This document shows, in pieces, positions 1-40,616 of a DNA stretch of 48,049 bases; within the stretch, counting starts at the first letter, position 1; each line of letters begins with the position of its first letter. The notes beneath the pieces were generated by a model. That model ran no database searches. It was not told the origin of the DNA and saw only the letters and a list, made by a program, of their open reading frames with translations. This DNA is from Catajapyx aquilonaris (taxonomy: Eukaryota): NCBI GenBank assembly GCA_000934665.2, contig KZ538776.1, forward strand, positions 1 to 48,049, in the 5' to 3' direction. The position numbers and the translations under genes were made by a program.

Positions 1-1282
1 GAATACACCTGACCCGGGGCCCCTGCCTTCTGGAGTGTATATGGAGCTGGAAAAGGTCCTTTGTGGGTAAGCTTAGTGGATTACACGTAATAATTGTTGG
101 CCACGTCTCCGCGCTTAACAGTTTCCAAAGCGCAGGAAAAAATTGTCATCAACTTTTACCCCCCGCTCCCCCCTCCCCCACCTCCCGTTTGCAATGAGCA
201 ATGGCTGTGAATGGCGCTCAATTATTGCGACAGCATTGCCCCTGCATTGCATTGCAAAGGACAATATAGGTATGATCAAAATGTCCATCACTTCTTCCAT
301 ACGGCGAAATAAAGGGAGCTGTATAATATGTCATCCGGGCCGAGAGAGAGACACTTGATTCAAACGCGCGTGTACGGTGCACGACCTTCAATGCCACGCC
401 ACTTATATCCCTTCTATATTTCCAGAATCGGCTCTTATCTGCACCTCGACCTCGTGTTGTCCCCCCCTCTCATGCCCCCTCTATCCCCCCTCCCCCTTCA
501 ACCACCACGTGATTCCGCCAGAAAAGAGTAGCCGATGTAACGCAGCTAGACAACAGTAGTCGAGGAAAACGAGCGAGGTCAAAGTTATCCTGGCCAGACT
601 GTAACCCACTCGACGGGAAATTTCTTTTTGAACCGTTGATACATGGCCTTAGGTTCTCCTCTATCCATCTGCACATGCATGGCATGTTTATGTCCAACGA
701 TAACATTGTTATGAGCAGTGTAGGAAAGGACCTGTTTTTCTCGCCCCTACGCACTTCACTGCATGGCTAATTTTTTTGTTTTTGTTTTTCCTTTACCCCA
801 TTAGAGGGACACTTCCTAATATCATCCATGCCGTGCAACGTTGCCATTGCCCACCTTTGCCTGTATTGGAAATAAATGCAAGATTATGCGACAGCAATCT
901 TTGATATAGTGCAGGGTGCCAGACGCCAATCGTTTACGATAATTACGATGCAATTACTACATTTATTATATTTACTTTGTCAGTTATCAATGAAACGTTT
1001 CAAATCTTTCCATATGTAATGCTACTCAAATGAACGACAATCTGGCTATCTTGGAAAAAAAAATCCGGAATTGACCTCGAGGTCAGATCAAATGAAAGTA
1101 GTGAGAAAAGGCAACAGATGGCGATGAAACCTATTTCATTCTATATGAAACAGCTACCAGCTCTTTTTTTCCCCCCTGTTACTTGTGTCCCAGGTCCATG
1201 TAAACATCACTGACTCACTGCGTGGTAGGCATTGCAAGGACTGGAATTGACTGATCGTGGCTACCCCCTCACAGTACGATTT

Positions 1283-4205: not shown

Positions 4206-4552
4206 TTTTTTTTTTTTAATACCTTACCCTGTGATAAGGCTGAGCCTTTTTAGGGGGGTGGAATACCACCATTTCACTCCATTTTCCGGTATTGACTTCA
4301 TTCACCGGTGCAAGGAGTCAAGGATGTAGGGTAGGGATAGGGATTTTTGGGGAGGGAACATTGGTGCAAGTGCAATGTCGGTAAAGGGGTCATGTGCTGT
4401 TCCCCAGGAGGTTAGGTTGCCAGACACCTCCTTGGTGCAGGTCAGAGACCCTCCCGACGCAGGTGAAAGGAAAGTTCCCCAGGCGGGGATCGAACCTGGG
4501 GCTTTTCACTCAGCAAGCTGAGACGTTACCATCTCGGCCATCTACACCTCCC
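4206..4552 (-). mobile_element. tRNA-derived SINE family B
   Basis: Head GGGAGGTGTAGATGGCCGAGATGG..GGTTCGATCCC (TGC-like loop), poly-A tail, TSD CACAATGTT(G/T)TATCT (4191-4205/4553-4567); sister copies at 16479 and 29905. Confidence 0.85.
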
Positions 4553-4647
4553 CACAATGTTTTATCTCAAACTGATAATGTTGAGTCAAATGCTATTATG
4601 CTGCCATAATGTTTGACAAGTACAATGAGTTTCACAATGATTTAGCC

Positions 4648-4872
4648 CAGTGGTGTCCAACCTTTTACCAACTGCGACCCCCTAAACATGTTTCCATAAA
4701 TGTGCGACCCCCCCTGGCCCCATCTACAACTGCCTCATTTCCAGAAAACATACATGCTGTATGGCAGCAAAATTGGTTCAATTTACACAGAAATTGCAAA
4801 AAAAAGTTGAACAAAGGCTCGCAACCCCCCGCGACCCTGCCCGCGACCCCCCCCCCAGGTTGCAAACCACTG
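4648..4872. mobile_element. hAT MITE
   Basis: CAGTGGT...ACCACTG TIR with 8-bp TSD ATTTAGCC; same family as 25076-25314, in the opposite orientation. Confidence 0.9.
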
Positions 4873-5856
4873 ATTTAGCCAAATGTTTATGCCATGATAT
4901 TTTATACCTTGTGTTTGAAGCACTGTCTTAGTAATGACTTACAGATACCAAGTGACACCTTTGTGCCAAGAGCTCTAGTACCTATAGGAGTTAGCATGAG
5001 ATGCTTTGTCTGAATTGTTATAGAACGCCTTACTAGGTAGATTGCAATATTGTTATTTTTCACACAATGACACCCTAATTTTGTTTTGCTCCTCCTGCAG
5101 CTGATGAAAAATACACACTGATTCCTGTGGATTAGTGGAAAGGGCTCTCACGTGTATATTTAAATTTCTCTGTTATTGTTGACATGCAAGTGGAACACAT
5201 TAACTCCTTTGTCCAGAAAACCAGTTTTGAAATAATGGAAGACAAAAATGATGATAACCAAGTCAGAAAATCCTTGCTTGCTGGCTCCTTATGAATCTTT
5301 AAGACTAATGGACTGGAATGGACTTCACCAGGTGACAAAGCAGAAAAGTGCCAGTTAGAAGTGGTTGTATGGAATATGAGTTAAGGTTAACTACAGAGTT
5401 AGCTCAGAGAACGAAGGTTTTTGTTCTTGACAAAATAATTACCAAAGTAACAATTGTCAATACTAATTTTATTGATTGTTGGAGTTAATTACAACTTTGT
5501 TAAAATATTCATTTGTCCTTGGTGCAGAATGTGATTGTACTGACATTAATATTGGTTACAACTGCAAGTTCTGCATCAGTGTGCTGTGTAGCCTCTTGAT
5601 TTTCAGTGGCCAGAGGAAAATTTTAATGCCACACAGCTGTTGTACTTCCATGTTTGATGTGCCATTTGTCTGTTGTTTTAAGGGCCATTATTTTGACCTG
5701 TCATGAAAATAAAAATGTGCTTCATCATTAGTCCACATGCAGTAAGTACACTGAATATTTGTTATCTTTGACTTTAGTGGACTAGCAGGTGTCATTAGGT
5801 TAAGTAACTACTATGCTGGGTGTGAAATTTGGTCCCTCATTCTTTCGAGTATGCCC

Positions 5857-6607
5857 TTAAGCCGGTGGTTTCTGGTTGGCCTTGTTTTTCTTGGAAGACA
5901 CTGCAAAGATAAAGGCATAATTTTTTAGGGGGCGTGACCCACCTTTTTACAAGGGAATACTTTCTAAAATTGTTTTTCACCCTCAATTCCCTGACACCCC
6001 CCTGGCCTGCCAACATAACAGTATCCTTGGCATGCAACTTGATTACAGATTGAAGAGTGTTCTTTTTTTTCACCCGCTCCTACCTGTTATGAGTTTGGTG
6101 GGTCCGTCTGGCTTTTTGAACTTGCCCTGGTTCTGTGCCTGTATCACACCCAGCCCATATCCAACTTTGTAAACTGGGATGGGGATCACAGTAGACGACA
6201 CTGCTATTAGTACTGTGGAAAAAATTATTGGACATTGAGTGGTTTTCATAATAACTTACGTAAAATTTACTTTTTGCTTATGACAGTTGAGAGACCACAC
6301 ATCCTTGCTTTAGGATTTTGACAAGGAACAACAAGCTTTATGATCAACACATATTCTGTCAAGAGTGCTCTGGGAATATTCGCCAATAAAGTTGCCCATA
6401 TGTATAGGTGAGATCAAGGAAGGGAGGGGCTCTTCCTTCAAGGCCACAATAAGTGAAAGTGGACCACAACAATCTGGCAACTTAAAACCAAACTTTGTAC
6501 CAACCTGGTTCCAAATTCTTGTGCTCATTTTTGGCATACACTGTGGTTTTTGCAAGTCCTGCACCCACCAACACCAGCACAGCACCCACCAAAAGCAGGA
6601 GCTTCAT
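5857..6607 (-). CDS. Small secreted cationic protein, 91 aa, 3 exons: complement(join(5857..5900,6084..6212,6505..6607))
   Basis: Exon 1 encodes MKLLLLVGAVLVLVGAGLA-KTTVYAKNEHKNLEP and ends CAG|GTTGGT. Exon 2 follows TTTTTTCCACAG and ends CAG|GTAGGA. Exon 3 follows TTTATCTTTGCAG and ends TAA. Both introns are phase 1; 103+129+44=276 nt. TATATA at 6735-6740 and AATAAA at 5468-5473 on the minus strand. Confidence 0.75.
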
Positions 6608-6699
6608 TATCACACACCCTATCACAGCAGCAAGTCCTTCCCAACAATGTAGGCCACCTGTGTGCGTTCCACTCTACTGACTTGGCACACCGCTCACTA

Positions 6700-6745
6700 A
6701 GACACTGCAAAATGGTAGAGGTTGAGCGTGTGTGTATATATGTGG
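6700..6745 (-). promoter_or_regulatory. TATA-type core promoter of the small secreted-protein gene
   Basis: Minus strand reads CATATATACA, followed ~30 nt later by Inr-like TTGCAGT/TTAGTG, ~100 nt upstream of the ATG at 6607. Confidence 0.4.
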
Positions 6746-7319
6746 GCGGGATGATGAGGAACCTTTTTAAGGGAAGTGCAGCCTTGGTTGGTTTCTAACA
6801 GGATCACGAGTCGTCACCACGCCTTAGGGAATTTTACGCGCATGTTTTTTCCTTTGATTTGAAGGGCGTGGGTTCCAGGTGGGGTAGGGCAATGGGGGTA
6901 TCATACTTGGAAATTTTGCGGTGGGTTAAAAATATTTTTAATCGTCAATTATTTTGGAATTGTATGCTTTTGTTTGAGCCCTATTTAAAATACTTGCAAA
7001 TATTTTTCGTGGATAATATATTTTGATGTTGTGGAAACACATCAAGTTGTATTATTCTATCACAATATATTGAGTCCATGGATATAGGCATCTGATCCAT
7101 TTTTACATGTAATCGTTGATATGGGATGCAAACGGTGCTAATTGTGTGGGTTGACATCGCTAGGGGTCGCCGAACCCATTTGGCCAACCATAAAAGGTGA
7201 CCTAAGCGTGGTCACACCTACGTGATCCCGGATTCCTGTCATGGAAAATGCCATTGTTATGTAATGACTATGGTTGAGATATTGTGGGACTTGGCGTTAA
7301 TTCACGGTGAATTATTCTC

Positions 7320-8190
7320 AGGAAAGTTCCCGCCATCAGTATGAGCAAGTTCTATATGCGCATGCGCACATACTAATTCCAATGTGCCGCGATTGTCGGC
7401 AATAAATTATTCAGCTCCATGATGAGCTTTCATGGTGAGGTAGGTCGCCACTGTTACAGTCTGAGTTGCAATAACGGGATAGACCTTTCCACTCATTTTT
7501 AAGAAATAATATAAAAATGTCCGTTTTGGGCGGGCGGTGTCCCTTACAAAGGATCCCAGGGCACGAAAGTCATGACCGGAAAATGACACAAAAAAAGGAA
7601 ACACGCACGTTATTCGCAGCATCTTCATGAGAAACCCGCTTCAAACACCTATTGTTATCAGTTGCCCATGGCACGCTGAAGAGAGGTGACATACTTTGTT
7701 ATAAATGCGTTTAAGTTCAAACAAGTAATGTTGTAATTAAAGCTACATAAATTTAAAAAGGAAACTTTTTTTGGCCTTTCGTGAAGTTGACGCGGAGTTG
7801 GCGTACAACTGTACGAGTGTACGGTGACTTCGTGATTTGAACACACTTTTGAATCCGCCACCAAACACCTGGGCAGCATGTGACTTGTATCACGTGATTT
7901 CAAATTCAGTTTATAAAATATTTTACGTATTGCTCTGAAACTAATATAACTTTAATTTACGGTACGAAGAATGATCCAAACCCATGATCCAAACCATCCA
8001 AACCAGATCCAAACAGTTACGAAATAGCATGTCGTTGTCGGTACAGTCACGTGACCAGTGGTATCAACATGGCTGCCACTTATTGCTACTAACCACGACA
8101 GTAACCTTTGCATTGATTGTACGGACTGTACTAAGCGTGTTTACAAAAACCGTGGCCTATACGCATATTTACTGGCATACGTGTGGGTAC
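7320..8190 (+). promoter_or_regulatory. CpG-rich housekeeping-type promoter region and probable non-coding first exon of RBM41
   Basis: TTCCCGCC (E2F-like) at 7327, TGCGCATGCGCA (NRF1/EWG-type) at 7357-7368, GTCACGTGAC E-box at 8046-8055, CAACATGGCTGCC (YY1-like) at 8065-8077, donor G|GTACGT at 8187, and acceptors just before the ATG at 9288. Confidence 0.45.
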
Positions 8191-8217: not shown

Positions 8218-9167
8218 TACGAGTACGAGTCAAAACATATTGGGACTGATTTTTTGTGATAAAGAGAGTGCCAAAGAGAGTTAGGTCATGACTTTTCATG
8301 AGTGACATCGTGTCCAGAATGGCTTGAAGTATTAGATCACGAATTCTTGTTTTAATATTCTAAAATCCCAAGTGACAGTGACACTGGAAGTTGGTTTATA
8401 TTCGCCTCTGCTCGTCCAGGAGGTTGGCGGTGGGGGCCAATATTCAGCGTTGAGGTTTTTCTTCTGTTTGAAGACAACAGCAGCGACGGATGCATATGGC
8501 ATGCTAAGAGAGGTGTATGGTGAGGAAGTTTTCCATACCATTTCGATGGTACAAGGCATTCAGCGAGTCAGTAGTAAGCTTTCAAAGACAAGTCTGCAGA
8601 ATCTCATCAGAGTTCTGACATAGGATCTCATTAACACCACCTGTGCAGTGATTGTTCAGGAATAGTGCTGCATATCTGTTGATGGCCTTGCCAGAATATG
8701 TGGTATTTCCCATGGTAGTGCCCACGCAATTTTGCACTGACCAAATTTTGCACATATGACGCGTTTGCACCCGATGCGATCGGTCCTCAGGTTGTTTACT
8801 CCATAGGAGAGGCAGATACGGGTGGAATGTTTGTGAAGAGTTTCAATGTCTTGTGGCCTCACATGGTGACCCGTATCTGCTGTTCACAATCTTAGCATGT
8901 CGTACACCTCTGTGGCTGTTTTCTGGAAGAAAAACCTCAGCGCTGAATATTGGCCCTCACCGCCAACCTCTTGGAGAGCAGAGGCCAATATAAACCAAGG
9001 TCTACTTCCGGTGTCACTGTCGCTTGGGATTTTAGAATATTTGAGCAAAAATTCGTGATCTAATACTTCAAGGCATTCTGGACACGATGTCACTCACGAA
9101 AAGTCATGACCTAACTCTCTTTATCACATAAAAAATCAGTCCCAATTTGTTTTGACTCGCCCTTGTA
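8218..9167. mobile_element. mariner-derived element with ~300-bp inverted arms
   Basis: TA-CGAG..CGAGTCAAAA ... TTTTGACTCGCCCTTG-TA. Both arms carry the transposase start (KTTAATDAYGMLREVYGEE / KTATEVYDML). Confidence 0.85.
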
Positions 9168-9287: not shown

Positions 9288-12200
9288 ATGATGGAGTCAA
9301 AGTATTCCGGGGCAAGGGCTAAGAGGTATGGGATGATTGATGCCGAATACTGTCCGCCGGTCGAACCACACGAAACCGAAATCGACAGGCAGGTCAGGGA
9401 TCTGCTTAGCAAGCAGCAGGACACGAGAATCACACTGAGAGAGTAAGTATACACTGTGTGCTCTGTTATTATGGCAAAATGAATTGTTGCAGATTGGGTG
9501 CATGGCCGTTTGAGCGGAACAGTTGTAGACTCGTATGATACTTATGACTTCAGGCAGTTTGTGTCAGTTGACTACAAGTCAGCAATGGACTGAGGAGGAG
9601 CCAAGTGCCAGGAGGAGAGGCAGCGCAACTGCAGTTGTTGTAGACATTGAACACAATGTTGATCGATACATGCCAGTAATAATTTTATGACCTCCTGTCA
9701 AATGAGCAAAGAGCTGTGGCTCAGCAAGTGTTAAACATGTTACCCAACCAATGCAATGGGACCAATTTGTGCCAGCCCTTTGAGCACTGTGGAATGTCAC
9801 ATACATGCTGCTTTATTATAAGCTGGTTACTCGGCTGCTAGGCAGACAGGCAGGAAGGCCACTTTGAAAGAGGCCATACTAACTTAATATGTTTATTAGA
9901 TGGATGACTAGATAAGAATTTGTTATTAATTTAGAGTTGAACTGATTTTTGGTACATCTTGTGTATCATCTTGGGTCGGGGCATGTTAAAGCTGCTCAAT
10001 GTGGAGTCGTATTTAATGTTAATTAAAATGATCCTAGTAACAATTTTAGTGCAAATGGGGGAGTGGTGCTTGCAAATTTAGGATCATAACACATTTCAAC
10101 CTATTGCATGAAATATTTGTGCATTTTTAAAAACGATATTGACAGTCCAACTAATTGAGCAATAATTATTTCAGACAATTGGCAGCGAGGAAGGAATTTG
10201 TCTCGTCATCTAGTTTTGTCCCAGTTACTGAACTTTTATCGGGAACCTTAAGTCTGACACAGTTTGAATTAGCTGAGGGGCTTATGGGCAACATCCAGCA
10301 CCTAAAGAGTTGTGGTTTGACTGATGATGAAGTGAAACTCCAGCTTGATTGCATTGAACTGAGCCCTGCAGAATTCAACCAAAAGTATGCTAAAGTCAGC
10401 CGGAATGCACTTGAGTCACGCCTAAGAAGCATTGCGGAGCGGATATACATGAAGACATTAGAACTGACAGAGAAGCATGACCTGCATAAAAACATAACCA
10501 GACATGAACTTGACTTGGAGCTCTCACTTAATCCACTACCTGAGAAGGCATCACTCATTCACTTCCTGATTGGACAGAGGAAGTCACCCAAGAGGGACAA
10601 CCACCCCTTGACACATCCCATTAACCAGATCAAGCAAATTGAGTCAGATCTGAACCTCAGATTACAACCTCAAAAAGTCATTGTAAGTACTTGAGTAGTA
10701 GTAGTAGTAGTGATGAGGATAATAGCAACACCAGCAGCAATAATAATGATAGTAATTTAGAGTGGTCTTTCTAGGAAGGAAGAGTGCTTACAATTATTCA
10801 GCTGATTTCCAGTAACCATAAAGTATGAGGTTACTTTCAGCAATTAAGAGTAACTGCTATCCCCTCCTTTGTGGGGATGAAAAAAAGCAGCAGTCAGCAG
10901 TCTATTTTGAGTGCATATCAGATATCAGCCATTTGTGTCAAAATTACTCAGAATGTAGACCAGGAGCACACATTTTGTAGTAAATCGATGTTTGGCCATC
11001 AAATAGGGACATTACTGAGGCTCATGGATGTTTTTAGCAGAGAAGATTTTAGGTTGGAAAACCCAGTCTTACGCTCCCTGTATAGAGGAGGTTGCACAAG
11101 TAATAGCAATTTGGACGTCATGTTTTGTCATAATGTCAAGAATGTTGTACAATTTCTCTAGCACAAGGGGTCCAAGTATGGTTTTTGATCTTAAATTTTG
11201 GCTGCTAAAAACATCCCTGGGCCTCAAGTAGGACCAAATTAGGTGACTAAAGTGTGATGTACAGGTGAAGGGAAACTCGTGGACAATCGCCAAGTAGACT
11301 GACAGTACTCGTAAAACTAATATAGGTATGTGCAATTAGTTTTGGGTGCCATTGCATAGTTAACGCGTATGGCGCCTTTAAAGTGTAGAGGGCCGGATGG
11401 TAAAATATGAGGTAAAAACGACAAAGTGCACGGGTGTCGTACCTGGATTCTTACTCTGACGGGATTTGATCACCTATTGCACATGGACGATGTGTTACGG
11501 ACCCAAGGCTGGATCGGAGGCGCTCGAGCTGGCTTCTGCTTCTTTGAAGCTGGCGGAACGGATGTGACGTCACGAAACTTTGACAGTGCCGTATGCATTA
11601 ACTACGCAACGGCTCCCAAAACTAATAAATTGCACATCCCTATATTAGTTTTGCAAGTACTATCAGTCTACCTGGTGATTATCCGCGAGTTCCCTCCACC
11701 CTGTATGTTGAAAATGTATTCCCCGAGCTGGTATTTTGCTGTAATTTTTGACTGCCCAAATTATTATTAATTATAATACTTTCTGGTTAACTGGAAAGGA
11801 GTTGTGGAAAGGATCCCTTCCAGGATCGTTATTCCTCTTAGGATTACAATCGGAGGATAAGAATTTGGGCACATTAATGTCATTACCTCCAGTTTTAACT
11901 AACAATTGGTATTTCAAAAAGTCACAGTCACATCTACCATTGCTTGACAAATTCAAATATAAATTTTCTTACGTTTCGAGTACCTCCTGTTATGGTTTTA
12001 GAGTGGAAAAATTGCACAATTTGAAATTTCTTAAATACATAGATCTTCAAAATGTCTTCTAAAATCCTCTTACTACCTATTATTTTGAGTTTCTCTGAAT
12101 ATAATTTTTTGGCACATATTTTGTTTCAATATTATACCTTGTTATTTACAGAAGCCTGTCAGTCTACATCCCAAGCCAACATGTGAAGTGGAACCAGCAT

Positions 12201-15200
12201 CTCGTTTTGTGGGCCCTTGTAGACCAGATTCATTGTGGGACATTAAAACCTCAGTGCCATTAAAAGCATGGTCAAGGCAACGACCACAAATTGAACCAGT
12301 TCAGCCCAAGAGACAAAAGTTGTACACTGTGCAAGATGGACAAATTATCTCAGTTGACAAAGTGACAGAGACACATGTACCCAAAAGTACAGCTCAAAGT
12401 ACATGGTTTGTAGGTACAAGCGACATCAGGCCAGAAGCTTGTGACCAGCTCAGTGTGGAGGATATCAGGAAGATTTCACATTTCTCAAATTATGATCCAG
12501 GAGTGCCATCCAATGTGCTGTATGTTAAGAACTTAGCCAAACATGTGACTGAAAGTGACCTTGTAACAATGTTCAGTGAGTCTGAAAAAGCAGGAAGGCC
12601 AACGTTGAAGTATCGCTTGTTAAAAGGACGAATGAAAGGACAAGCTTTTGTTACCTTTCCAGGTAAGCCCTGTTTCTTAATATTATGAATATGACCAAAT
12701 ATTTCGAAAAATTATTCTGCTAAACAGAATCTCAATATGTCTTAGTAATTCAGGCTGAAAAGCTGGCCGTAGGGATATTACTTTTTTGGCTTTTTCACGT
12801 GACACACATTAAGACGTACCCAGTTCTACCCTTAAGAAGGATGTCACTTTGGCAAGGAAGTTTTTACCTTCTTCCTGTCTGCCTTACAAAATATTATAAT
12901 ACAAGGGTTGGATTTTAAATAGTGGCAACACTGCGATAAGTTTCAAAAGAAAGCTTGAATTAACAAATTTGTTATATACATTCCTTCAAGGTAGTTGTCC
13001 CCGCACTCCATGACCCCTTTCCAGACATGTGGGAGGCATTGGATGCCTTCAGCAGAGTGATGTTTGTTGATATCTGCAGTCACCCGCCCTGAAAGCGTGT
13101 ACTATCACTTCAATTCTCTGGATACGTTGCCCTGCACTGATTCCTTCATTTTTGCGAACAAAATAATCAAAATCGCAAGGGATCATGCCTGCAGAGTAGG
13201 GAGGGTGCTGCAGTGTTTCCCATTGCCAACGAAGCAATAATTATCTCACTGCAGATGCGACATGGCAACGCGATAGGGCAACGCTAAAGGGCTGGTCATG
13301 GTGCTGGTGGTCAGGAAGTGTGGTCGATTGCGTTGTTTCGCTGGTCTCATATGGTGTTCCAAGACCGAAGCAGTAGTGGTGGAGTGGATAGGGTGTCCGA
13401 CTGCTAATCGGGAGGTCCTGGGTTCGAATCCCGGAGGCCGGCGACCCTGACCATGGTTTTCTGTGGTTTCCCATGGTCCTGGCAGGATAATTCCAGGGTC
13501 GTTACCGTAATATAGGCCACAGCCGCTTCCTTCCTTCCCTTTCCCTGCTTCATTTCGATCATGAGAAAATAGTACAAAATGGAAGAGTTCCAGACAAAAA
13601 AATTGGGAGAAATCCCCCCCTAGGAAGGCCCGTAGGCTGATAATGGGGTATCAAATTATTATATGGTGTTCCAAGTCGTGGTAGTACTGGGCATTGCCAT
13701 GGCCTCTCGCCACCTCGATCTTCAACCAAAAGTGATGTTCTAACTTCGATGCCACGGCTTAGGGCGGTGCACGAGGATGCGGCCCCTTTGAACTACCCTG
13801 TCACCATCACCAGTAGCACAGCTGGGTCCAAACTAGACATGAACAAGACCCACATCTGTCTGGATCTCCCTTCTTGCGCAGAAGCCACAACCCCGTTTCT
13901 GTGCGCAAGGGGAACAGGGTTGCCACTATTTAAAATCCAACCCTCGTAATTATAATAATTCATACCCCATTATCAGCCATCGGCTCTTTAGGGGGGAAGT
14001 TCGTTTTGCCTGGAACGCTTTGCTTTCATTTTACTGCGCTCTTTGGGATAGGATAGGGATGGAAGGAAGCGGCTGTGGCCTATTAATTACAGAAACAACT
14101 CCGGAATTTTCCTGGAAGGACCGTGGGAAACCACAGAAAACCACGGTCAGAGTTGCCGGCCCCGGGGATTTGATCTCAGGACCTCCCGATTAGCAGTCAG
14201 ACACCATATCCCCTCCTCCAAACTGCTTCGGTCCCTCGTAATTATAATGATTTGGGTAGGGAGGACCTCTTGTGATGTATTACACAGGCCTTAATTTTTG
14301 TGTTATACTGTATGATCAGTACATCTAGGCCCTTTTTACATCGAAATGCCCTGGTCCACTGGCATATGGGTGGGGGGTTCCCAAGGGAGGGTAGGCTACT
14401 GTAAATGCACGGTGATTCACTAGGTAGTTGATCAGAATTTAGCTTCCTAATCTGCACATAATGCAAGCAAAGACAGTCTATTTTGTTTTACACTTGCCAT
14501 GTTTGATGTGAAAGACAAAGACATTTGACAATTTGGAGTGGTGCGTTAGGTTGTGTCTGGACTCTAGAGGTCAGTGGTGGCCACTTTCAGCACCTACTGT
14601 GATGTCACCTTTCACATCATACATGGAATGTTTAAAACAAAATATAATGTCTTTGCTTGCTTTCTGTGTGGGTTAGGAAGCTATATTCGGGTCAACTACT
14701 TAGTGAATTAGCCTGTTTTTCGTGTCATTTTGGACTGTCCTTAGCACGGGACCTTTTCTCCTGGCCCTGGGCAGGAAAAGGAATGCTAATCTGCCTGGAC
14801 ATGTTGGGTGAAAAGCAGGAAAAGACCCAACCAAACGAAGGTGACAGGATTTTTTTCCTTCTACCTCCCGCTTGGCTGGCCAGTGCAGTGGCATGACCTC
14901 TAGAATACTGTGCCCCTTGCTTTAAAAAATATATCCAAGTTTCAAGTTTTGTTTTCTTTGCGCTTAAAACTAGTTCCAACATTCTGTTCAGCAAAAGAGA
15001 GCTGCTAGGGACAAATTTTATATGAGGGCATGCTGATAATTTTTGCCTCCATGGACATAGAATCATTAGAATGTGTAATACATGTCACATGACAATGCAG
15101 GTAACATCAAATGAAAGCCTGAAATGTCTTCTTCAGTACCATACATTAAATTTTCTACATAATCACCACCAACAGCAATACACCTACGCCAACTATGTAG

Positions 15201-18200
15201 TAGTTATTTCTTCCCACCAGCATAGAACTCTTGACTGTGCCAGTGGCACCAAGTGCGAACAGCAGCCTCAACTTATGCAATGGAGCTGTACCAATTGCCC
15301 TTCAGGTGTGTCTTCATTTTTGGAGAAAGACAGAAGTTGCAGGGCACAAGTTCTGGGCCCTATACACCAGATGAGGAAGAACAGGGAATTTGAGTCTCTG
15401 GAGGGCATCTGCAATGTGATTGCTTGTGTGTGGTCGAACATTATCATGGTGAAGAATGACTTCCTTTCCTGGGTGCATCCTGTTCACTTGTACCCAATAC
15501 CTCAGCAGAGTGTCCACATGCACCTCAGAATTCACAGTTTTGTAACCGGTCAGGTTCTCGACATGCATGACATCTTCTCCAGAGACTCAAATTCCCTGCA
15601 CTTCCTCATCTGGCGTACAGCCCAGATCATGTGCCCTGCGACTTATTTCTTTTCTCAAAAATCGAGGCACACCTGATGAAAGGCAATCGGTACAGCTCCA
15701 ATGCAGAAGTTGAGGCTGCTGTTTGTGCTTGGTGCCTCTCCCACAGCTCAGAGTTCTATGTAGATGGAAGGGAAAAACAAGTACCATCAGAAGGGGATAC
15801 TTTACACAGCCAGGGTAACTTTACACAAATCAGGGGAAAATATTAGGTTTCGTGGTGGGTGACATCATGATTCCACAGGAAGCAAGGGATTGCTGCTGTT
15901 GTTTGACCACTGACCAGTGCATGTGCGGAGCTACTAGCCAAATCTGGAAGTCATTGAGTGACCCTGCGACTGTCTGTTGCGGGGACTAGTACATTAGGCA
16001 GCATTTTGTGGCACTTCTTAGCATCTGCAAACTTCGTAGTGCACCCTCGTCATGTGGGATGCAAATGTTCCCAGATTCAAATATGATGTCCCCTGAAGGG
16101 TTGTTATCTACATTATATGGGTATGAAGTAGTTTTTCAAAATATATATGTTAAAATTCAGTGTTATGCTGACAAGGGTCATTTTACTTAGGCAATCAGGG
16201 GCAACTTTACACAAAGCATTCCAAGAGTCCAACCCTTCTGGTGCCACTTTTGAATGAAAATTATGAGTAACAGTAATGATTGACTGTGAAAATGATCATG
16301 ATCGTGATTTGGTGCAGGGAAAATGGGTTGTGGTGGAATTATCTGGTAAAAATTCACTGGTCTACTATAAGCCTAGGTGCTGCTGGTGTGAGCTCTCCCG
16401 GCTCACCCATTGATGTCATAGGTAGGTTGAAATAAAAAATGCCTTATTCTTTTGTGTGGTCAAACGTGTAGGACATTTTCTTTTTAACCCCATGATAGGG
16501 CTGAGCCCTTATAGGGGGTGGCACACCACCATCAGTTTTCTAGAGTGTAAGTTTTTTTCTTCAGACTCTGGTGCAAGGAATCAAGGACATTGGGTAAGGA
16601 TGGGGCTTCTTGGGAAGGGTACACGGGTGCAAGTGCATTGTCTCAAACTGGGCCACGTGCAGTCCCCCTGGAGGTTAGGTTGCCACCTCCAAGGCGCGGG
16701 TCAGAGACCCTCCTGACGCAGGTGAAAGGGAACTCCCAGGTGGGGATTGAACCTGGGACCTTTCACTCAGCAAGCCAAGACGTTACCATCTCGGCCACCA
16801 CACCTCCCCATGTGTAGGACATTTCGGAAGTAGAAAAGAGCTAAGATGTTAGAATTCTTGTTGATCTGACAGAGTTGTGCAGGTGTGACACAACATTTAA
16901 AGAAGCCTCTGTGAAGTGTCTGTTTGGTTTTCCACATTATGCTGCCGCTATTTGAGGAATTTTTTATTAATAGTGCTTCACTGTGTTACCTGGTGCTATG
17001 TGTTTGTTTTTATACCAGTACCAGTATTTATTTGTAATTATACTAGTGCCTGTATCTCACACTTTAGTGGTTCATGTTCAGGTAAAGAGTATTCTTAAAA
17101 TTAGTGTAGCCACTGCATTTGTAGTCTCATTCCTCCTGCTTTCTTATGGGGGGCATTTTTTGTTGTAATGGCATTTTAGGTTGAAATGGCAAGCTTGTGT
17201 AAAGTTGTCCCAAAACCTGGGTAACTTTACACAGCAGCTTTTTATTTTTTATATTTATTAGTAAAATCTACTACATGCTTAACCCCTTCGGCCCCAGATC
17301 GGCCCGAACCACACAGTTTTTGGCTTACGCGTACTCCGAAGATAAGGACAAGATATTTTGCAAATAATAACAGCTATACTTACGAGATCTGGGAAAACCC
17401 TATGAATGTGTCTGGAACCATTTTACTCGTCTAGCAGTCCCTAAATTAATTTCCAAAAAAGGGCTATAATAACTCGAAATTGGACTACTGCCGCCCAACT
17501 TTTAGGCTGATTGAATTACGAAATGCGTGAAAATATGCGGAATAACAACTTTGAGAACCATACCAGAGGAATTTGCTGAAATCGTCGTACTTTGCGAGAA
17601 ATAAATTAATATTTATTTGCGGCTTTCTAGCACTTAGGAAAACTCCTAAATGAGTATGAGAAGAATTTTCTGAAATCGTCGTACTTCATGGGAAACAAAT
17701 AAATGTGGGAGTTTTCCGAAGTTTTCCGAAGGGCCAGAAAGCCGCAAATAAGTATTAATTTATTTCTCGCAAAGCACGACGATTTCAGCAAATTCCTCTG
17801 GCATGGTTCTCAAGGTTGTTATTCCGCATATTTTCACGCATTTCATAATTCAATCAGCCTAAAAGTTGGGCGGCAGTAGTCCAATTTCGAGTTATTATAG
17901 CCCTTTTTTGGAAATTAATTTAGGGACTTCTAGACGAGTAAAATGGTTCCAGACACATTCATAGGGTTTTCCCAGATCTCGTAAGTATAGCTGTTATTAT
18001 TTGTAAAATATCTTGTCCGTATCTTCGGAGTACGCGTAAGCTAAAAACTGTGGTTCGGGCCGATCTGGGGCCGAAGGGGTTAATCCTGCATCGCATAAAT
18101 ATGTAGGTTGTCTGCATGCAATGGTTTCGAAATCTCACATTCACATAATATGCAGTTAATAGGGAGCCAAACAAAACTGTGTAAAATATCCCCTTCTGAC

Positions 18201-22299: not shown

Positions 22300-22496
22300 T
22301 TGTCTTGATAAAACTTACACTCTGGATGGTATAGTTTGAATTATGAGTCCATTGATGAGAATGACCTTTATCCTGTTGACTTCTATCATTGACACTCAGG
22401 ATAACTGCTATCATAACCTTGAAAGTTATATAATAAGAACTAGGTCTACTGCTGATTTATGTCATAGCATCCTCAGTCCTGCATGAGACACTCACC
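22300..22496 (+). promoter_or_regulatory. Esterase proximal promoter (GATA sites, TATATAA 22427-22433)
   Basis: TGATAA/GATAA motifs, AATGACCTTTATC, TATATAA, and TCAGT at 22473, directly upstream of ACCATG at 22497. A diverged second copy lies at ~21865-22080. Confidence 0.55.
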
Positions 22497-25400
22497 ATGT
22501 TCAGGATTACTTTGAGAGTGCTTGCTTGCTGTTTTGTTGCGACACTGGTATGGGGTAGTGAAGCTGAACACCCTGTGGTCCGCACTAAAAAGGGTTCTGT
22601 GCGTGGCTTCATTCAAGAATCAACTAAGGGAGATCCTTTTTATTCTTTCCTGGGAATTCCATATGCTGCTCCTCCAGTTGGAAATTTGCGGTTCAAGGTT
22701 GGAAACTCTTTTTATTGAATCATGTTACTGAAATGCTCCTGGAATTATTACCAAGTTATCAATTTGCAGCCCACTCAGCCAGCTTCAGCATGGACCAATA
22801 TCTTGGATGGAAGCACACCAGCAGCAATGTGCCTGCAATATGACGAGTTCTTCACTCACAGCGTTGCTGGTGACGAGGATTGTCTTTACTTGAATGTCTA
22901 TTCCAGAGAGGTAATTGTAATGTGTACATATTGATTCTTGCCAAATTGTTGACTGTCTTTAGAGGTCCAAGATTTAACACTGATAATAATCAGTTAGGGA
23001 GTATGTAGCTACTGACATACTGTACTTGTGAGAATGTAAGTGTTGTAGAATAATGGCCAGCTGCTTTCTGAATCCATCTTGCTTGTGAGACAGGTTTTGA
23101 TACAGAAGCTGGGAGTGTCAGGTAGAACTTAGTGTGCCATTAGGATAATATCCAGTTGGTTGGTTGCAACACATTTTTTTTGCAGCATATCAGACATTGA
23201 AAGTTATTTTTCTGAGTTGGCCAATGCTGGGACACCCTCTTATTCTTTTGCCAAGTTGAGGATTGCATTAGGCCCTTGAGTCACTGAATGGCTAAAGTAG
23301 GGAGAAGCATACATGGCCCAAAGGTGGTGGCGAGTCACGGGTTAGGCTCAGGTTGACTTACAGCAATGTGCAGCAGAATGGTATTTACAGTCATTTCAGT
23401 GAAAGAACGACATGACGTCACACGAAAATGTCACTAATGCGCAGTAGTGTGCTTGGTGGAGTGATTCGAGGACTTGAGAGGGGGAAGAGCCAGGGTGGAG
23501 GCAGGCTTAATCTGACATCATGTTGTTCTTTGCTGAAAGGACTGATGCTGTAGAACAGGATGGTCAAAGAGCATTGTGCAATTATGAACTGTTGTTTGTA
23601 AGCTGGAATTATGCCCAAGGCCAACACTTTCTACAATGGCAGAATATATTGTAGAACTATGCGAGCCCAGTGGTCTTATGCAGATGCCAAATACTTTCTT
23701 GGAATATGCGAATCTGTTCTTATAATGAAGTCTGGTCTGTAAGCTTCGAGTGACCAGCTGATTAACACAAATCAGCCCCCTGTCTCTTCCAGCCTAGCCC
23801 TGTGTTGACTTTAATATAAAAATCTCCGCCATGAGGGGACTTTGGCGCTGGCACGCCCCCACAGGAATCTACTGGGGTGTCGGTTTGGGTTGGCCACCTT
23901 CGGAACCAACCCAAACCGTCCTTTCCTCAGAGGGCGTTTGCAGACTAGGATTTGGGTGGCTGGCAGGGGTAGATTCCTGTGGGAGCGCGCCAGCGCCAAA
24001 TTCTCTGTCTGGGGGATACTTTTATATTAAACTACTGTATCGTAGGAGTGACAGGGGGCTGACACAAATCATCAGAATTAGCCTGCTCATTAACCCCTTG
24101 AGCCCCAGCTATACTGCCATCGCCTAGATTTTCGTTTCTGTTAAATTTACATGTACTCTGAAGATAAAAAATAAGATATTTTACCAATAATAACAGCTAT
24201 ACTTACACGTTCATGCTCTACTCTATGTGTGTGTTTGGAACCAGTTTCATCGTGTAGAAGTCCCTAAATTAATTTCCTAAAGGATCGCCGCAGAGTATAG
24301 CTATATTGCAAGCGCCTAGTTTTTGGCTTGCACGTACTCTGAAGATAATTATAACATATTTTACAAATAATAACAGCTATACTTACACATTCACGGAAAA
24401 CATAACTTATATCTTGGAAACTATTTTCCTTGTCTAGAAGTCCCTAAATTAATTTCCAAAAAGATTGCTGTAAATTCCATCACCTAGATTTTCACTTGCA
24501 CTTACTCTGACGATAAGGACAAGATATTTCACAAATAATAACAGATACACTTACACGTTCATGCTCTACACTATGTAGGTGTTGGAAACCATTTTCATTC
24601 ATCTAGAAGTCCCTAAATTAATTTTCAAAGGTAATAACTTGAAATTCAATTACTAATGGCCAACCGTTAGTCCACCGCCTAGATTTTCCCTTACACGTAC
24701 TCTGAAGATAAGGACAATATATTTTACAAAATAATAACAGCTATACTTTCATGTACCTTGAAAATGCTATGAATGTGTTTGGAACAATTTTCCTCCTCTA
24801 GAAGTTCCAAAATTAATTTCCAAAAAGGTCGCTGTAAAAAAACTCGAAATTCGAGAACTGCCGGCCAACTGTTACGCTGATTTAATTATGAATACATTCA
24901 AATATACAGAATATTAACCTTGAGAACCATGCAAGACGAAGTTGCTGAAATCGTCGTACTTCGCAAGAAATAAATGAATTAGGGAGATTTCCGAAGTAGC
25001 AGGAAAGCCTCATGTAAGAAATAATTTATTTCTCCCAAAGTACGACGATTTCAGCAGATTCTTATGACACTATTCCAGTGGTTTCCAACATGGGGATCGC
25101 GACCCCCAGGGGGGGGGGGGGTCGCGTGTAGGGTCACGAGCCTTTGTTCAACTTTTTTTTTTGCGATTTCTGTGTAAATTGAACCATTTTTGAGGCCGTA
25201 AGAGTGTATGTTTTTGGAAATGGGTCAGTTGTAGAAGGGGCCCGGGGGGGGGTTTCGCACATTTATGGAAACATGTTTAGGGGGTCGCAGTTGGTAAAAG
25301 GTTGGAAACCACTGCACTATTCTCAATATTGTTATTCCTTGTATTTTAATGTATTTCATAATTTAATCAGCTAAGTAGTTGGCCGGAAGTACTTGAATTT

Positions 25401-28400
25401 CGAGTTTTACAGCGATATTTTTGGAAATTAATTTAGAGACTTCTAGATGAGGAAACTTGTTCCAGACACATTCAAATTTTGGGTAACTATATTGATGATC
25501 AGTTGTACTGTTTCTGGTAGGTATTATATTTTTTAATGCAAGTGCATTATGAATAAGTGATATATTGTGACAATAATTGAGGGGTGCTCTTCCATAACGA
25601 GGTAAGTGCCAAAAATGAAATTTTACAGGGGAGGGTTTTTTCCATTTTGTGAGGAAACTTGTGTACCTTGAGGACTACAATTATTTATTTTAAAAACCAT
25701 ACAACAATACTAGCCAAAATAACACTACAAATTATTATGCTTGTATTAAAACGTATAGTAGGAAAAAATTTGCAAAAAAAGAAAAAGTTCCAAAACGAGG
25801 CAAGTGCCACATTGGGTTGCAATGAGAATCAGTATGTTGCCTTAAGATGAGATACTGAAGGAGGTTTGCAAGTTGAAAGAGAGTTGAAAAAAGCATGAAA
25901 GAGCTTCTCTCTGTGTCTTGTAGCAAGTGAGTGGCATTTACATGATACCTGTAATGGTTTAATTTATATGAGTGGCTATAACCGTGGCATACAAAATTGC
26001 TGTTCATGCATTGTTGTTGTGGAATCATGCGGGCTGCAGACCTCTTATTTATATTTTGTCAGTACCGTATTTACTCGCATATAAGACGCACTTTTTTTCT
26101 GATTTTTGTAGCTCAAAAAGTAGGGTGCGTCTTATATGCGTGTGCGTCTTATACGGCAGGGCACAACGGGTGAAACCCGTGAGAAATCGTGAAAATCGTT
26201 TATTGAAAAATTTAAGCTTGTCTGTTTGATGTCCTGTCAGCACAGTTGATCACTTTCCTCTTGAAATCGGCACGGTACGACATGCGTTTCTCCTTCACTT
26301 CCATTGATATGCTCTCCCCGTCCCCACACGTGCACAATTCCGGTGACACGCACATGCATTGCACATGCATTGCGAGGCCAGTTCCCAAACTACGGCAATA
26401 AATCTGGGTGCGTCTTATATGAGTCAACAACCGATTTTCCCCGATTTTTCGCCTCAAAACCGGGGTGCGTCTTATACGCGTGTGCGTCTTATATGCGAGT
26501 AAATACGGTATTTTATAAAAGTGTGGAGGATGATACTAATTATGTAAGAGAGGAATAAAACATGGAGCACTCTGGCCACACCTGCGCTGGGGTGGCTTTG
26601 CCTTTCTTTCCTCTCCCATCGTAGCAGTGTAACTTGTGCCAGTATTGCGGTGCTTCTTCCGAATGTTTTTTCCCCATTTTTCTGGATTTGAGCGTTTCTT
26701 CGGACGCCCTGTTGTCCCTTTCTCAGCCGCAGATGAGGCAATGTCCTCCATGATCTCTCTTGGCAAATTTGCCTCGTTCTAACCCGTTGTATGAGTGATG
26801 GCTGAAAACCTTCGGTATCGATACTTTCGGAACGGAGGCTCATAGGACAGCCACGTTTTTAGGGCAACTGCAGGGTGGCATTTGCTGCGAGAAAACACAA
26901 AAAAATGATTTTCCGCAAAAATGGTACTTACCACGTTATGGAAGAGCACCCCTCAATTGATCTCAAGTGAAAGATGGATATTTGAAAATTTGCTGTCAGT
27001 GTCACTGTCCAAACCCTGGTAAATTTTTGGAATTGTTAATTTACTTGAAATAAATACCCTTTTGTATTGTTATTATTGAAAAATATATATTGAACAATGT
27101 ACTGACAACATGTAACCAAATAGATACCAAAAGATGCCCATAACCCTAAACGACCAGTCCTGGTGTGGATTCATGGTGGTGGCTTCACTATTGGATCTGG
27201 GAACCCTGCTATGTACAGTCCAACATTGCTTATGAATAAGGACATAGTTTTGGTCACCATAAACTACCGTCTGGGTCCCTTTGGTGAGTCATGATGTGTT
27301 CATAAAAATGTAACTTTCTCTGATCAAACATGAACATTGCAGGATTTCTGAGCACTGCTGATGAGGTCGTCCAAGGCAACATGGGCCTGAAAGACCAAAG
27401 CATGGCTCTGAGGTGGGTCAAGGAGAATGTTGAGGAGTTTGGAGGAGACTCTGAGAAGATCACCATCTTTGGAGAGAGTGCAGGAAGTGCCAGTGTGCAC
27501 TACCATCTTCTCTCGCCAATGTCGAAGGGTTGGTAAAAATTATGTTTGTTTAAGAGTATCATTTATTAACAGTGGCAGGGGGGGCAGTGGCAGGGGGGGC
27601 AGGTATAACGTGTGGGGGCATAACGTGTGGGGCATAACGTGTGGGGGCATAACGTGTCAGGGGCAGTGGCAGGGGGGGCAAGGGGGGAGAATTGCCCCCC
27701 CCCCTTTCGACATCGGGGAAGTAGTCGTACACCAAAGTCTCTTCTGCAGCTCGTTTCTTGGCACACCACGTCGGCAGGGGTAACCGAACAATGGTCACTG
27801 TTCCTTGTGCCTCTTCTGTATACAATAATGTATCACGTTCATGAACAGAGCCCGGAACAATACGAAGCGGACGAAACTGTGGCGCACCAAGAAAGTTCCT
27901 TTGGGGGGGAAGGGGGGAAGGTAAAGCCCGCCACAGGCGAAAAATTTTTTGGGGTTCAAAGTCACAAGCTTAGGTGAATGAAATTATGTTCCTTCTCTCT
28001 CTCTCATTTTGCGCCCCCTAAATGTTGGCGCCCGGGGCAACTCCCCCCGGCTGCCCCCCCACGATACGCCACTGTTTATTAATACCAAAGCATTTCAGTT
28101 GTAACGATAAGTTTCACTACCAATCTCTTACGATTACTGGGAATGTGGTTAGTCATTGGTGAGTTGTTAATTTTCAAAGCAGGTGGTGGGTGCCCAGTCA
28201 TAATCATTGAAATTTTTGTGGAATATATACATGAGTGCTGCATCAAGTTATTGTAATGTGGTTAATTTATTAATAATAATAATAATTTATAATAATTCAT
28301 ACCCCGTTATCAGCTGGCGGCTCTTTAGGGGGGAAGTTCATCCCAATTTTGTTTTGACTGGAACTCTTTGCTTTCATTTTTACTTCGCTTTTTGGGATAG

Positions 28401-31400: not shown

Positions 31401-33381
31401 ATTTTGTTATTTAAAAAAATTTGGTATTATATGACTATAATTTGATGTGTTTATCCATTGTGCACCAGCATTCAGCTCACAACATCAGGTAGGGAATAAA
31501 GTCAGTAAAGGCATTACTTTCAGGCCCTTCCTGTCTAACTGTCTGTGTCAGTTTATGTACAGCACTAAACTTGTGACTCGGCATAGATAGACACTGCCTC
31601 CATTCACCATTCCTTCTCCAAGGTTAACAAAGCATAGGGCTTTACTACTGTCACAATTATAGGTCGGATTGTATGTTTATACATGTATTTTCTTCCTGTG
31701 TATGCAGAGAGTGTCACTCTTACAAAAGGGCGAAGTGTGGTGTTCTGCCCTTGCTGCCCACTTATTGACTATTATTGTCACCTTGAGAACTGACTAACCA
31801 GCACTAACTTTACTTCTTTATCCAGGCCTCTTCAACAATGCCATCAGCCAAAGTGGAACTGCCCTTGATGTATGGGCTTACATGGAACCTCAGCGAATAG
31901 CATCCCAGTCAAAGATCCTTGCTGGAATGTTGGACTGCCCAACAGATAATTCAGAAGTCATGATCAAGTGTTTGCGCAGTGTTGATGGTGAAAAAGTGGC
32001 AGAAATGCTCCCTAAGTTTTCGGTCAGCAAATGTTTGCCATTTTGTCCATCATAATTGAAACGAGTCCATTTTAAAATGATGACATTTTTCCAGAAATGG
32101 CTTATATTTCCAATTGTGCCATTTGGCCCAACAAGAGAAGTTAGAGGCAGTGGAAAATTTCTGGATGAGAGCCCACTGCAGGCACTGCATAATGGACATG
32201 TGTTGGATGTGCCATGGATGGTTGGGCATTGTGACTCTGAAGGAGAATTTTTTAGTGCATGTAAGTTAAGATGTAATTGGATATGTTATTGATAACGTAT
32301 TTCATGTACACTCAGACCACATGTTCCTATTGACCAGTTTTAACTACAATTAGACATTTTGTAGTTCAGAGAGATATAATTATGAGGTATTAGCCTGAAG
32401 TTTCTGCCCTGTTTATGTTCCAGGGGTGATGGAAATAATGTCAGGTAGTGCCATTCATGAGTGGACAAACTTAATGTAAACATTTCTGCTTGCAGATTTC
32501 ATCCCACATTTCAATAAACTCAACTTCGGGNNNNNNNNNNNNNNNNNNNNNNNNNNNNNNNNNNGGAGGGGGGGGGGGGGGGAAGAGATGCAGGAGGCAG
32601 TTTATGAGCATTTGCAGATATAAAACTTCTGAATATTTTTCCAACAGTATTGTTTGTTACCCCAGGGATGTAAGGAGTGTGTTGTAGTACTGTACAGTAC
32701 AAGAAGACTATATTGAAAAGTGACTGTCGTTTTATATCCATCACACCTAGAACATAGTCAGCCCAGAAACTTGAGGCACCTACCTCGCTCACAGAGCAGA
32801 GCATGCTTAATTTTATTAACAAATCCTGGGACCTGGTAAAATGTAATGAATTCCTTATTCCAGTTCTGCACATCAAGATATAGCAATGGGAATGCATGTG
32901 CATGATTGAAATGAATATCTATTGGTATTTTCACCTGACACATTGTCAGAGATGTTCAGGTCTGGTTGTACCACAGCCGGAAAACATTTTTATTCAGAAA
33001 AAAGCCAACAACATGCATAACAAACTTTTCTGGTTCCTTTCTGACTGAAATAGGGAAACACCCTGGAAGGAAAGAGTAACCCTTACAGGTGTGCAGGAGG
33101 CGGCAGGGGGAGTGGTGGCTGGGGGCAGCTTGGCTATGTCGCAAAGGCAAGGATGATTTTTCGGATTTTGGAAGAGGTATGCTGTACCAACCTAACCTAA
33201 CCAAGCCTTTCCTTCCTTCCTTGCGGATACAGACCTATCTTTGCGACACAGCCCGCTGCCCCCACCGACTACTACCCTCCCGCACGCCCATAAGAGCAAG
33301 TATATCCCCCTGGAACTCAACATGCCATGTTTCTTTTGAATGGATCTCCTTAACTTCTGTAATGTCTCACTATAAACCTTT

Positions 33382-33417
<36 letters not shown>

Positions 33418-40072: not shown

Positions 40073-40616
40073 TTTTGAAGTTGTCAAAAATTGCGAATTA
40101 AGAATGTTTGAGTGCTGTAGCAATAAAATACTGATGCTAAAACTTTCCTGAATTTGTAAGGGGAGAAGGAGAGAGAGAGGAGACTGGTTATGTAAATATA
40201 GTGATGAAAGGAGCCAGTGAAGAAATTTTAAAAAGCCAAGAGAGGACCTGGGAAATAAACCGTTAATTGTAATATGAGAATGAGTGTCAGAAAAGTCAGG
40301 GTTAGAATGGGCTAATAGTAGTAAGAAAAGAGTGGGACAGAGCAGTACCACGTCTAGTGACTGCCGAAAACACCTCAGTGTCAATGTCAGCCAGGGACGT
40401 TGGAACCATGGGGGCGGTCGCCCCCACTACTTTTTGAGTGGGGGGGGGGCAATGGTTACCATTTGCCCCCGCAGTTTGAAATGGTCACATACATTAATTA
40501 ACCTGTTGAGGGCCAGGTTTTCTTTTCAATTGCAAGCCCCCACAGCCCGAGTTTTTTTTTTCCAAATTCAGGCGATAAAAATGAGTGACCAGACCTTAGT
40601 ATTCTTAGGCAGCTTT

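What the first reader, a model, noticed from the sequence alone, without database searches (positions are those of the whole stretch)
5468..6745. Hidden three-exon gene for a 91-aa Cys-free, strongly cationic secreted peptide
Seen: three short exons join through two phase-1 GT-AG introns into MKLLLLVGAVLVLVGAGLA/KTTVYAKNEHKNLEPVLIAVSSTVIPIPVYKVGYGLGVIQAQNQGKFKKPDGPTKLITVSSKKNKANQKPPA, with TATA and AATAAA. The spliced frame is absent from the ORF track. The predicted 72-aa mature peptide has 12 Lys against 3 acidic residues, no Cys, a beta-prone hydrophobic core and two KK sites. Inference: an antimicrobial, cuticular or glandular peptide or a peptide precursor. I cannot assign it to a named family.
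Basis: partly seen in the sequence, partly recalled or inferred. Interest (0 to 1): 0.72.

Follow-up and report, generated by a model that had tools for sequence, protein, structure and literature searches.

The report
Conserved unnamed insect secreted microprotein
This is a real, spliced gene for a tiny secreted protein that belongs to an old, still unnamed insect family with an almost unchanging core, and it looks more like a partner-binding extracellular protein than an antimicrobial peptide.

Summary
The gene model is exact: three exons, two phase-1 GT-AG introns (292 and 183 nt), 91 aa. One contig of a public run skips both introns at the predicted junctions. The protein is not an orphan. 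Exon 2 alone finds 35 relatives, and a profile finds 401. Those with names come from Odonata, Orthoptera, Blattodea, thrips, Hemiptera, Hymenoptera and Coleoptera, and NCBI calls them all uncharacterised. The core motif SSTVIP, Leu75 and Thr77 are invariant in 132 aligned members, while net charge runs from -2 to +11. Both intron positions recur in other genomes, and the gene has one clear copy here. I found no Pfam family over cut-off, no solved relative and no paper. AlphaFold gives an N-terminal hairpin with the core unfolded. Best reading, inferred: an ancient secreted microprotein whose hydrophobic strand docks on a conserved extracellular partner, most likely in cuticle or matrix, possibly as a signalling ligand. 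An antimicrobial or precursor role is unlikely. Verdict: a new member of an existing but unstudied family.

The parts
6735..6740 (-). TATA-like box (TATATA), 29-34 nt upstream of the 5' end of the spliced contig
   Evidence: function inferred
6608..6706 (-). 5' UTR part of exon 1, with no upstream ATG. The contig begins at 6706, the A of an initiator-like GCAGT (consensus recalled; contigs cannot prove a start)
6505..6607 (-). Coding exon 1: signal peptide (aa 1-19, 6607-6551) and the mature N-terminus, the region modelled as a beta-hairpin in relatives
   Evidence: BLASTP to relative P0158 14/33 identical, E 4e-07
6213..6504 (-). Intron 1, 292 nt, GT-AG, phase 1; position conserved in relatives
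6084..6212 (-). Coding exon 2: conserved core, variable loop, then K-P and L-x-T
6181..6198 (-). Invariant SSTVIP motif (aa 40-45)
   Evidence: 100% in 132 aligned members (rows were pre-selected on [SA]STVIP, which all 175 non-RBM41 proteins then held carried); STVIP also invariant in A1, A4 and A5, built without a script filter
5901..6083 (-). Intron 2, 183 nt, GT-AG, phase 1; position conserved in relatives
5857..5900 (-). Coding exon 3: Lys-rich, poorly conserved tail and TAA. It lacks the optional C-terminal helix motif of some relatives
5468..5856 (-). 3' UTR (listed contigs cover it down to 5481) and AATAAA at 5473-5468

Best explanation
Shown: this is the single clear copy, in this genome, of an old and vertically inherited insect gene for a secreted microprotein. 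The layout is a signal peptide, a short N-terminal beta-hairpin, an invariant uncharged Pro/Val/Ser/Thr/Ile segment followed by an alternating aromatic/Gly stretch, a variable loop, a K-P...L-x-T motif, and a variable basic tail. Inferred: after signal cleavage before Lys20 the peptide is secreted whole. It has no stable fold alone, and its invariant segment binds as an extended strand to a conserved extracellular protein partner. The basic tail probably adds loose electrostatic tethering. I put the most likely setting in cuticle or apical extracellular matrix assembly, where it would act as a small adaptor or structural accessory. Membership in the family is about 0.97 sure. The confidence below is for the partner-binding matrix or adaptor mechanism.
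For: Spliced contig. 35 and 401 relatives. Invariant uncharged core with variable charge. 130 of 132 members have a hydrophobic 8-mer just before the mature start, and 128 of 132 have A/G/S/C at -1. In 11 of 11 genomic loci the intron-1 acceptor sits at the same phase-1 position. The intron-2 donor is at the same position in 10 of 11, and one codon later in L019; these 11 loci are about four distinct lineages. The gene tree clusters by insect order: 11 label changes against a shuffled mean of 33, with Hymenoptera at 100/99. Two AlphaFold runs give the N-terminal hairpin; it is confident in the second (first 20 residues pLDDT 86-88) and less so in the first (74-77), and the core gets no secondary structure (pTM 0.29 and 0.21).
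Against: No partner, tissue or stage of expression is known, so the matrix setting rests only on composition (Cys-free, rich in P/V/Y/G) and on recalled properties of cuticular proteins. No cuticular Pfam family matches. Low pTM may just reflect a shallow alignment (Neff 2.8) rather than real disorder. This member is on a long branch (0.89) and departs from two near-invariant prolines, Thr at 21 (P 96%) and Ala at 38 (P 99%). The neighbouring reptin-like gene seen in ant-like and termite-like loci is not in this contig.
Confidence: 0.42

Rival explanations
1. It is an undescribed hormone- or cytokine-like ligand. The whole mature peptide is released into haemolymph and its invariant segment binds a conserved receptor.
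For: One clear copy, secreted, short, with an invariant core and a tree that follows insect orders, a pattern typical of ligands (general knowledge). It does not fold alone in prediction.
Against: No Cys scaffold and no conserved amidation signal (10 of 132). The one candidate I checked, PaOGS36577/Pea-NPLP, is a 679-691-aa precursor (PMC9552230, passages). No expression data.
Confidence: 0.25
2. It is a small regulator of an extracellular enzyme (a propeptide-like inhibitor, chaperone or accessory subunit) that inserts its Pro-rich extended strand into a groove.
For: An invariant extended hydrophobic segment of about 15 residues with fixed prolines, and a C-terminal motif that is dispensable (22 of 132 by my pattern).
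Against: No sequence or fold match to any solved inhibitor. No partner known.
Confidence: 0.15
3. It is a cationic antimicrobial peptide.
For: This member is +9, pI 10.06, and the family median is +6. It is secreted and small.
Against: Charge is not conserved (-2 to +11; 17 of 132 at +2 or below). The Lys residues lie mostly outside the core: only one Lys falls in aa 34-64. There is no match to an AMP family. One clear copy with an invariant core is unlike the duplicated, fast-changing AMP families (general knowledge).
Confidence: 0.1
4. It is a precursor cut at KK sites into active short peptides, or a lineage-specific gland or venom peptide.
For: 75 of 132 members have KR or RR somewhere in the mature part (position 26 is Arg in 53%). 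A Lys cluster separates the core from the optional C-terminal motif. One automated UniRef label reads 'Venom protein'.
Against: This protein has no Arg. Position 67 is Lys in only 9% of relatives and is followed by K-P. There is no conserved amidation signal. The family spans at least seven orders, most of them without venom (order assignment and venom status from my own knowledge).
Confidence: 0.08

Closest known systems
Unnamed insect family annotated 'uncharacterized protein': Tribolium castaneum LOC100141997, Apis mellifera LOC107965706, Ischnura elegans LOC124154284, Cryptotermes secundus LOC111875545, Bemisia tabaci LOC109035962
   Same: Signal peptide, mature N-terminus, SSTVIP core, K-P...L-x-T, basic tail and both intron positions. 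Best BLAST hit is Ischnura, 58% over 79 aa.
   Different: This member has Thr for Pro21 and Ala for Pro38 (the Ala also occurs in P0021 and P0158). It is among the most basic members (+9) and lacks the C-terminal helix motif found in cockroach, cricket, whitefly and many beetle members.
Cys-free cationic insect antimicrobial peptides (cecropins, proline- and glycine-rich peptides; recalled)
   Same: Small, secreted, Cys-free, net positive.
   Different: No Pfam match. The charge is not conserved, the invariant core is uncharged, and there is one clear copy.
Non-R&R cuticular proteins (CPF/CPFL, Tweedle, low-complexity P/V/Y-rich classes; recalled)
   Same: Secreted, Cys-free, rich in Pro, Val, Tyr and Gly, arthropod-restricted in the Atlas hits.
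   Different: No cuticular Pfam model matches any of 107 members. Not repetitive, and much shorter.
DUF4794 (PF16042)
   Same: An automated UniRef label on one firefly member and a feature-level Atlas neighbour at 0.81.
   Different: 0 of 107 members match PF16042 at E<=1.
Bacterial GerW/YtfJ (PF09579)
   Same: One short beta-strand-like stretch is similar; 7 of 107 members hit at best E 0.01, below the cut-off.
   Different: HHalign probability 26% over 20 columns, and 1 of 60 block shuffles scores as high. Treated as chance or convergence.

Membership tests
Unnamed insect SSTVIP family | Invariant SSTVIP core plus K-P and L-x-T | tested here: met
   the A4 profile scores exon 2 at 75 bits (exon 2 is one of A4's 107 rows)
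Unnamed insect SSTVIP family | Signal peptide directly followed by the [K/H/R]-P-T-x-Y mature N-terminus | tested here: met
   Hydrophobic 8-mer 3.2, G at -3 and A at -1; exon 1 aligns to P0158 at E 4e-07; Pro21 is replaced by Thr. SignalP itself was not available.
Unnamed insect SSTVIP family | Two phase-1 introns flanking the core exon | tested here: met
   Acceptor in 11 of 11 and donor in 10 of 11 genomic loci at the same place. 21 of 31 representatives without the mature N-terminus continue with Gly or Ser after L-x-T (the N|GT donor read through), against 5 of 115 full-length proteins.
Unnamed insect SSTVIP family | One clear copy per genome | tested here: met
   One match at E<=10 with exon 2. 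With P0064, one strong match and one borderline at E 0.47. The assembly is fragmented (20,583 contigs).
Unnamed insect SSTVIP family | Downstream convergent reptin-like neighbour (seen in ant-like L006/L007 and termite-like L012) | tested here: inconclusive
   Reptin-like genes lie on other contigs, C6779 and C4332. The contig ends 5.4 kb past the gene in a repeat.
Cationic antimicrobial peptides | Positive charge conserved as the functional trait | tested here: not met
   Net charge -2 to +11 among 132 members; invariant residues uncharged
Cationic antimicrobial peptides | Match to a known AMP profile | tested here: not met
Cationic antimicrobial peptides | Immune induction and killing activity | not testable with these tools
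   needs challenge RNA-seq and an assay
Neuropeptide precursors | Conserved dibasic cleavage sites and a Gly amidation signal around a conserved peptide | tested here: not met
   No Arg in this protein; K67 in 9% of relatives; amidation pattern in 10 of 132; KR/RR in 75 of 132 but not family-wide
Named cuticular protein families | R&R, Tweedle, CPF or chitin-binding Pfam domain | tested here: not met
   none among 107 members at E<=1
Named cuticular protein families | Epidermal, moult-linked expression and presence in cuticle | not testable with these tools
   only one contig-level run was listed
DUF4794 | PF16042 match | tested here: not met
GerW/YtfJ | Profile-profile homology beyond one strand | tested here: not met

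The most novel reading that the evidence does not exclude
The family is an overlooked, ancient hexapod (perhaps pancrustacean) hormone- or cytokine-like ligand with its own receptor. It would have escaped fly and moth genetics because it is lost or strongly diverged there. None of the 103 named rows among the 120 listed is dipteran or lepidopteran, but 281 of the 401 hits were not shown, so absence is not established. A divergent clade of unassigned sequences (L010, L014, L017, L018, P0163; 98/88 support) and L019 hint at a range beyond winged insects.
Probability: 0.2. Interest if true: 0.75.

Novelty: new member of a known kind. Interest (0 to 1): 0.42.

Why it matters
The locus itself is an ordinary orthologue. 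The family is the lead: a secreted protein of about 70 residues with a six-residue motif fixed across at least seven insect orders, and no Pfam model, structure or paper in my searches. Such constraint in a tiny secreted protein suggests a conserved partner and a function that matters. Because it appears to be single-copy and is present in Tribolium, Blattella, Gryllus and Apis, one RNAi experiment could test it. It could add a new cuticle factor or a new insect signalling axis. Split over three short exons, it is also easily missed or mis-modelled; several database entries have wrong N-termini.

Tried and rejected
Word-indexed search with exon 2 against longer proteins: 2 candidates, none at E<=1, a sensitivity failure that overturned. 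Pfam and NCBIfam: nothing over cut-off. PDB by sequence: 0 at E<=10. Foldseek on a low-confidence model: 0 at E<=0.001; the second model was not searched. Homodimer prediction: no verdict, score 0.00, alignment not used; not evidence either way. Atlas with exon 2: best 0.82, a lead only; with P0034, two unnamed arthropod clusters at 0.93. YtfJ/GerW similarity: rejected (45 of 80 examined loci gave a usable protein, and they had been selected by the very motif in question, which biases towards a match). PaOGS36577: wrong size. Viral contigs: 41 pattern matches, 0 relatives. Second genomic hit L003 (E 0.47; 22 bits with the profile; no DNA similarity beyond 10-15-nt words): left as probable chance. 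The apparent overlap of window 1-642 with reptin-bearing C4332 is a repeat with 48 matches, so it gives no synteny evidence. No run was on record as RNA. Earlier findings: none by sequence or place, and one by words on another contig, not checked. Papers: motif searches gave 0 and 2 irrelevant hits; 18 gene and protein ids gave 0; topic searches were seen as listings only; PMC13539456 passages and its one supplement held nothing relevant.

Full report
Observation. The window is the whole of contig C1486 of a 285.6-Mb assembly in 20,583 contigs. The product is 91 aa, and the mature 72 aa have 12 Lys, 3 acidic residues, no Arg, no Cys and pI 10.06. TATATA starts at 6740 and AATAAA at 5473. One public run was listed (kind not on record). 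Laid on 4500-8000, a 501-nt contig at depth 71 follows the three exons with no mismatch and skips exactly 5900-6084 and 6212-6505. Another contig covers 5481-5760. The intron interiors and the region above 6723 are uncovered (8 of 49 pieces were shown). I read this as a spliced transcript. It is one run from one study. A processed DNA copy is the alternative, but searches of the genome found no second strong match. The contig begins at 6706, on the A of an initiator-like word 29-34 nt below the TATA box. Contigs cannot prove a start, so this is only consistent.

What it is. A word-indexed search with exon 2 failed, but the full HMMER scan gave 35 relatives at E<=0.001, 50-68% identical. A profile of 11 sequences gave 401 proteins at E<=0.01, of which 120 were listed. 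By my count 103 of the 120 carry a species name: 66 Hymenoptera, 21 Coleoptera, 5 Orthoptera, 4 Hemiptera, 3 Blattodea, 3 Odonata and 1 thrips (orders assigned from my own knowledge). Their names are uncharacterised, hypothetical or unnamed; two carry automated UniRef labels, 'Venom protein' and 'DUF4794'. Repeated species are isoforms or alternative models, apart from two identical Cataglyphis entries. No fly or moth is among the listed rows, but 281 hits were not shown and the profile held no such sequence. The best BLAST hits of the spliced protein are damselflies, 58% over 79 aa. In a tree of 55 rows (50 of the 175 family proteins then held, 4 transcript loci and this protein) the labels cluster by order: 11 changes against 33 shuffled. 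This protein sits unresolved on a long branch (few columns, 20 of 52 inner branches open).

Anatomy. Of 175 family proteins, 132 had a recognisable mature N-terminus and were aligned; the other 43 are fragments or mis-modelled and were dropped. The set is rich in Hymenoptera and near-copies. In it SSTVIP, Leu75 and Thr77 are 100% conserved; Tyr24, Asn27, Glu33, Pro38, Tyr49 and Pro69 are 96-99%; the loop at 59-67 and the tail vary. Net charge runs from -2 to +11 with median +6; 2 of 132 reach +9 and 17 are at +2 or below; 1 of 132 has a Cys. 130 of 132 have a hydrophobic stretch right before the mature start and 128 have a small residue at -1. An optional C-terminal motif, helical in the second model, occurs in 22 of 132 by my pattern and is missing here.

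Gene structure is conserved too. Of 16 metagenome loci, 5 are spliced and 11 genomic. All 11 have an AG acceptor at the same phase-1 position as intron 1. Ten have a GT donor at the intron-2 position, and L019 has it one codon later. These 11 represent only about four lineages: 3 ant-like, 6 termite-like, L015 and L019. The exon-1 donor was found in 3 of 5 loci tested. Ant-like L006/L007 and termite-like L012 both have a convergent reptin-like gene downstream (gene name recalled from the sequence). In this genome the reptin-like genes are on other contigs and the contig ends in a repeat, so synteny is undecided.

Structure. Two AlphaFold jobs on relatives (107 and 65 rows) gave pTM 0.29 and 0.21. 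Both show a short N-terminal hairpin and no secondary structure over the invariant core. No Pfam family reaches its cut-off in 107 members. The recurring weak YtfJ hit shrinks to one strand, HHalign probability 26%, matched by a block shuffle.

How it most likely works. Shown: a spliced, apparently single-copy, vertically inherited gene with a secretion signal and an invariant uncharged core. Inferred: invariance over at least seven insect orders in an unfolded-looking segment points to a conserved binding partner, with the segment docking as an extended strand. I weight the settings as cuticle or apical matrix adaptor 0.42, hormone- or cytokine-like ligand 0.25, enzyme regulator 0.15, antimicrobial 0.10, and processed precursor or gland peptide 0.08. 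Against my reading: there is no expression, partner or phenotype evidence; the shallow alignment (Neff 2.8) may explain the poor models; and this member has lost two near-invariant prolines. Against the antimicrobial reading: charge is the variable trait and only one Lys lies in residues 34-64. Against a precursor: no Arg here, no conserved KK at 67-68, and an amidation pattern in only 10 of 132, although 75 of 132 have KR or RR somewhere.

What is known. Full-text searches for family motifs and for 18 gene or protein identifiers found no relevant paper; topic searches were seen as listings only. I read passages of PMC9552230, which gives PaOGS36577/Pea-NPLP as 679-691 aa and so not this protein. 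I read passages of PMC13539456 and searched its one supplement, with nothing relevant. The library lacks most subscription papers, its search does not cover supplementary tables, and bioRxiv supplements are closed. Expression or proteomic tables listing these genes under other identifiers could therefore exist. Properties of AMPs, cuticular proteins and convertase sites used above are recalled.

Verdict. This is a new member of a family that exists in databases but has no name, profile, structure or study that I could find. The locus is ordinary; the family is a tractable, moderately interesting lead. Interest 0.42. The boldest reading left open, an overlooked ancient ligand missing from flies and moths, has probability about 0.2 and would merit 0.75.

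Noticed in passing
window 9290-12688 (+): A divergently oriented multi-exon gene starts about 2.6 kb upstream. One exon has an RRM (Pfam E 4e-06) and hits RBM41/RNPC3-like proteins.
   Followed up: partly
window 22437-39571 (+): Exons of a carboxylesterase (PF00135 at both ends; signal-peptide-like start) spread over at least 17 kb.
   Followed up: partly
window 1-642: An interspersed repeat with 48 matches in G000, up to 99% identical, ending sharply at 642; it probably broke the assembly here.
   Followed up: partly
window 15314-15846 and 28991-29272 (-); 8336-9120: Short frames that resemble mariner/Tc1 transposase remnants (recognised from memory), and an inverted-repeat-like element near 8.2-9.1 kb.
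   Followed up: no
window 41151-41392 and 40608-40852: Tandem arrays with 11-33-nt units (up to 94% match), open in several frames, and a 121-nt two-copy repeat.
   Followed up: no
G000:C6779:2080-3359 (+) and G000:C4332:6990-14934 (-): Two reptin (RuvB-like 2)-like genes, about 74-77% identical in DNA. One is compact with a short intron; the other has kilobase introns. A duplicated reptin is unusual as far as I recall.
   Followed up: partly
L003:1501-1638 (G000:C3915:14570-14707): A 28-residue stretch resembles the family core across the intron-1 junction (E 0.47; 22 bits). It could be a decayed retrocopy but is more likely chance.
   Followed up: partly
L010, L014, L017, L018, L019; P0015, P0163: A divergent subgroup with an acidic insertion after the core motif, from organisms I could not assign. 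L019 is the most divergent yet keeps phase-1 introns around the core exon.
   Followed up: partly
P0002, P0007, P0014, P0031, P0032, P0033: Several NCBI isoform models of the family replace the signal-peptide exon with unrelated sequence, exactly at intron 1. These are either alternative first exons or annotation errors.
   Followed up: no
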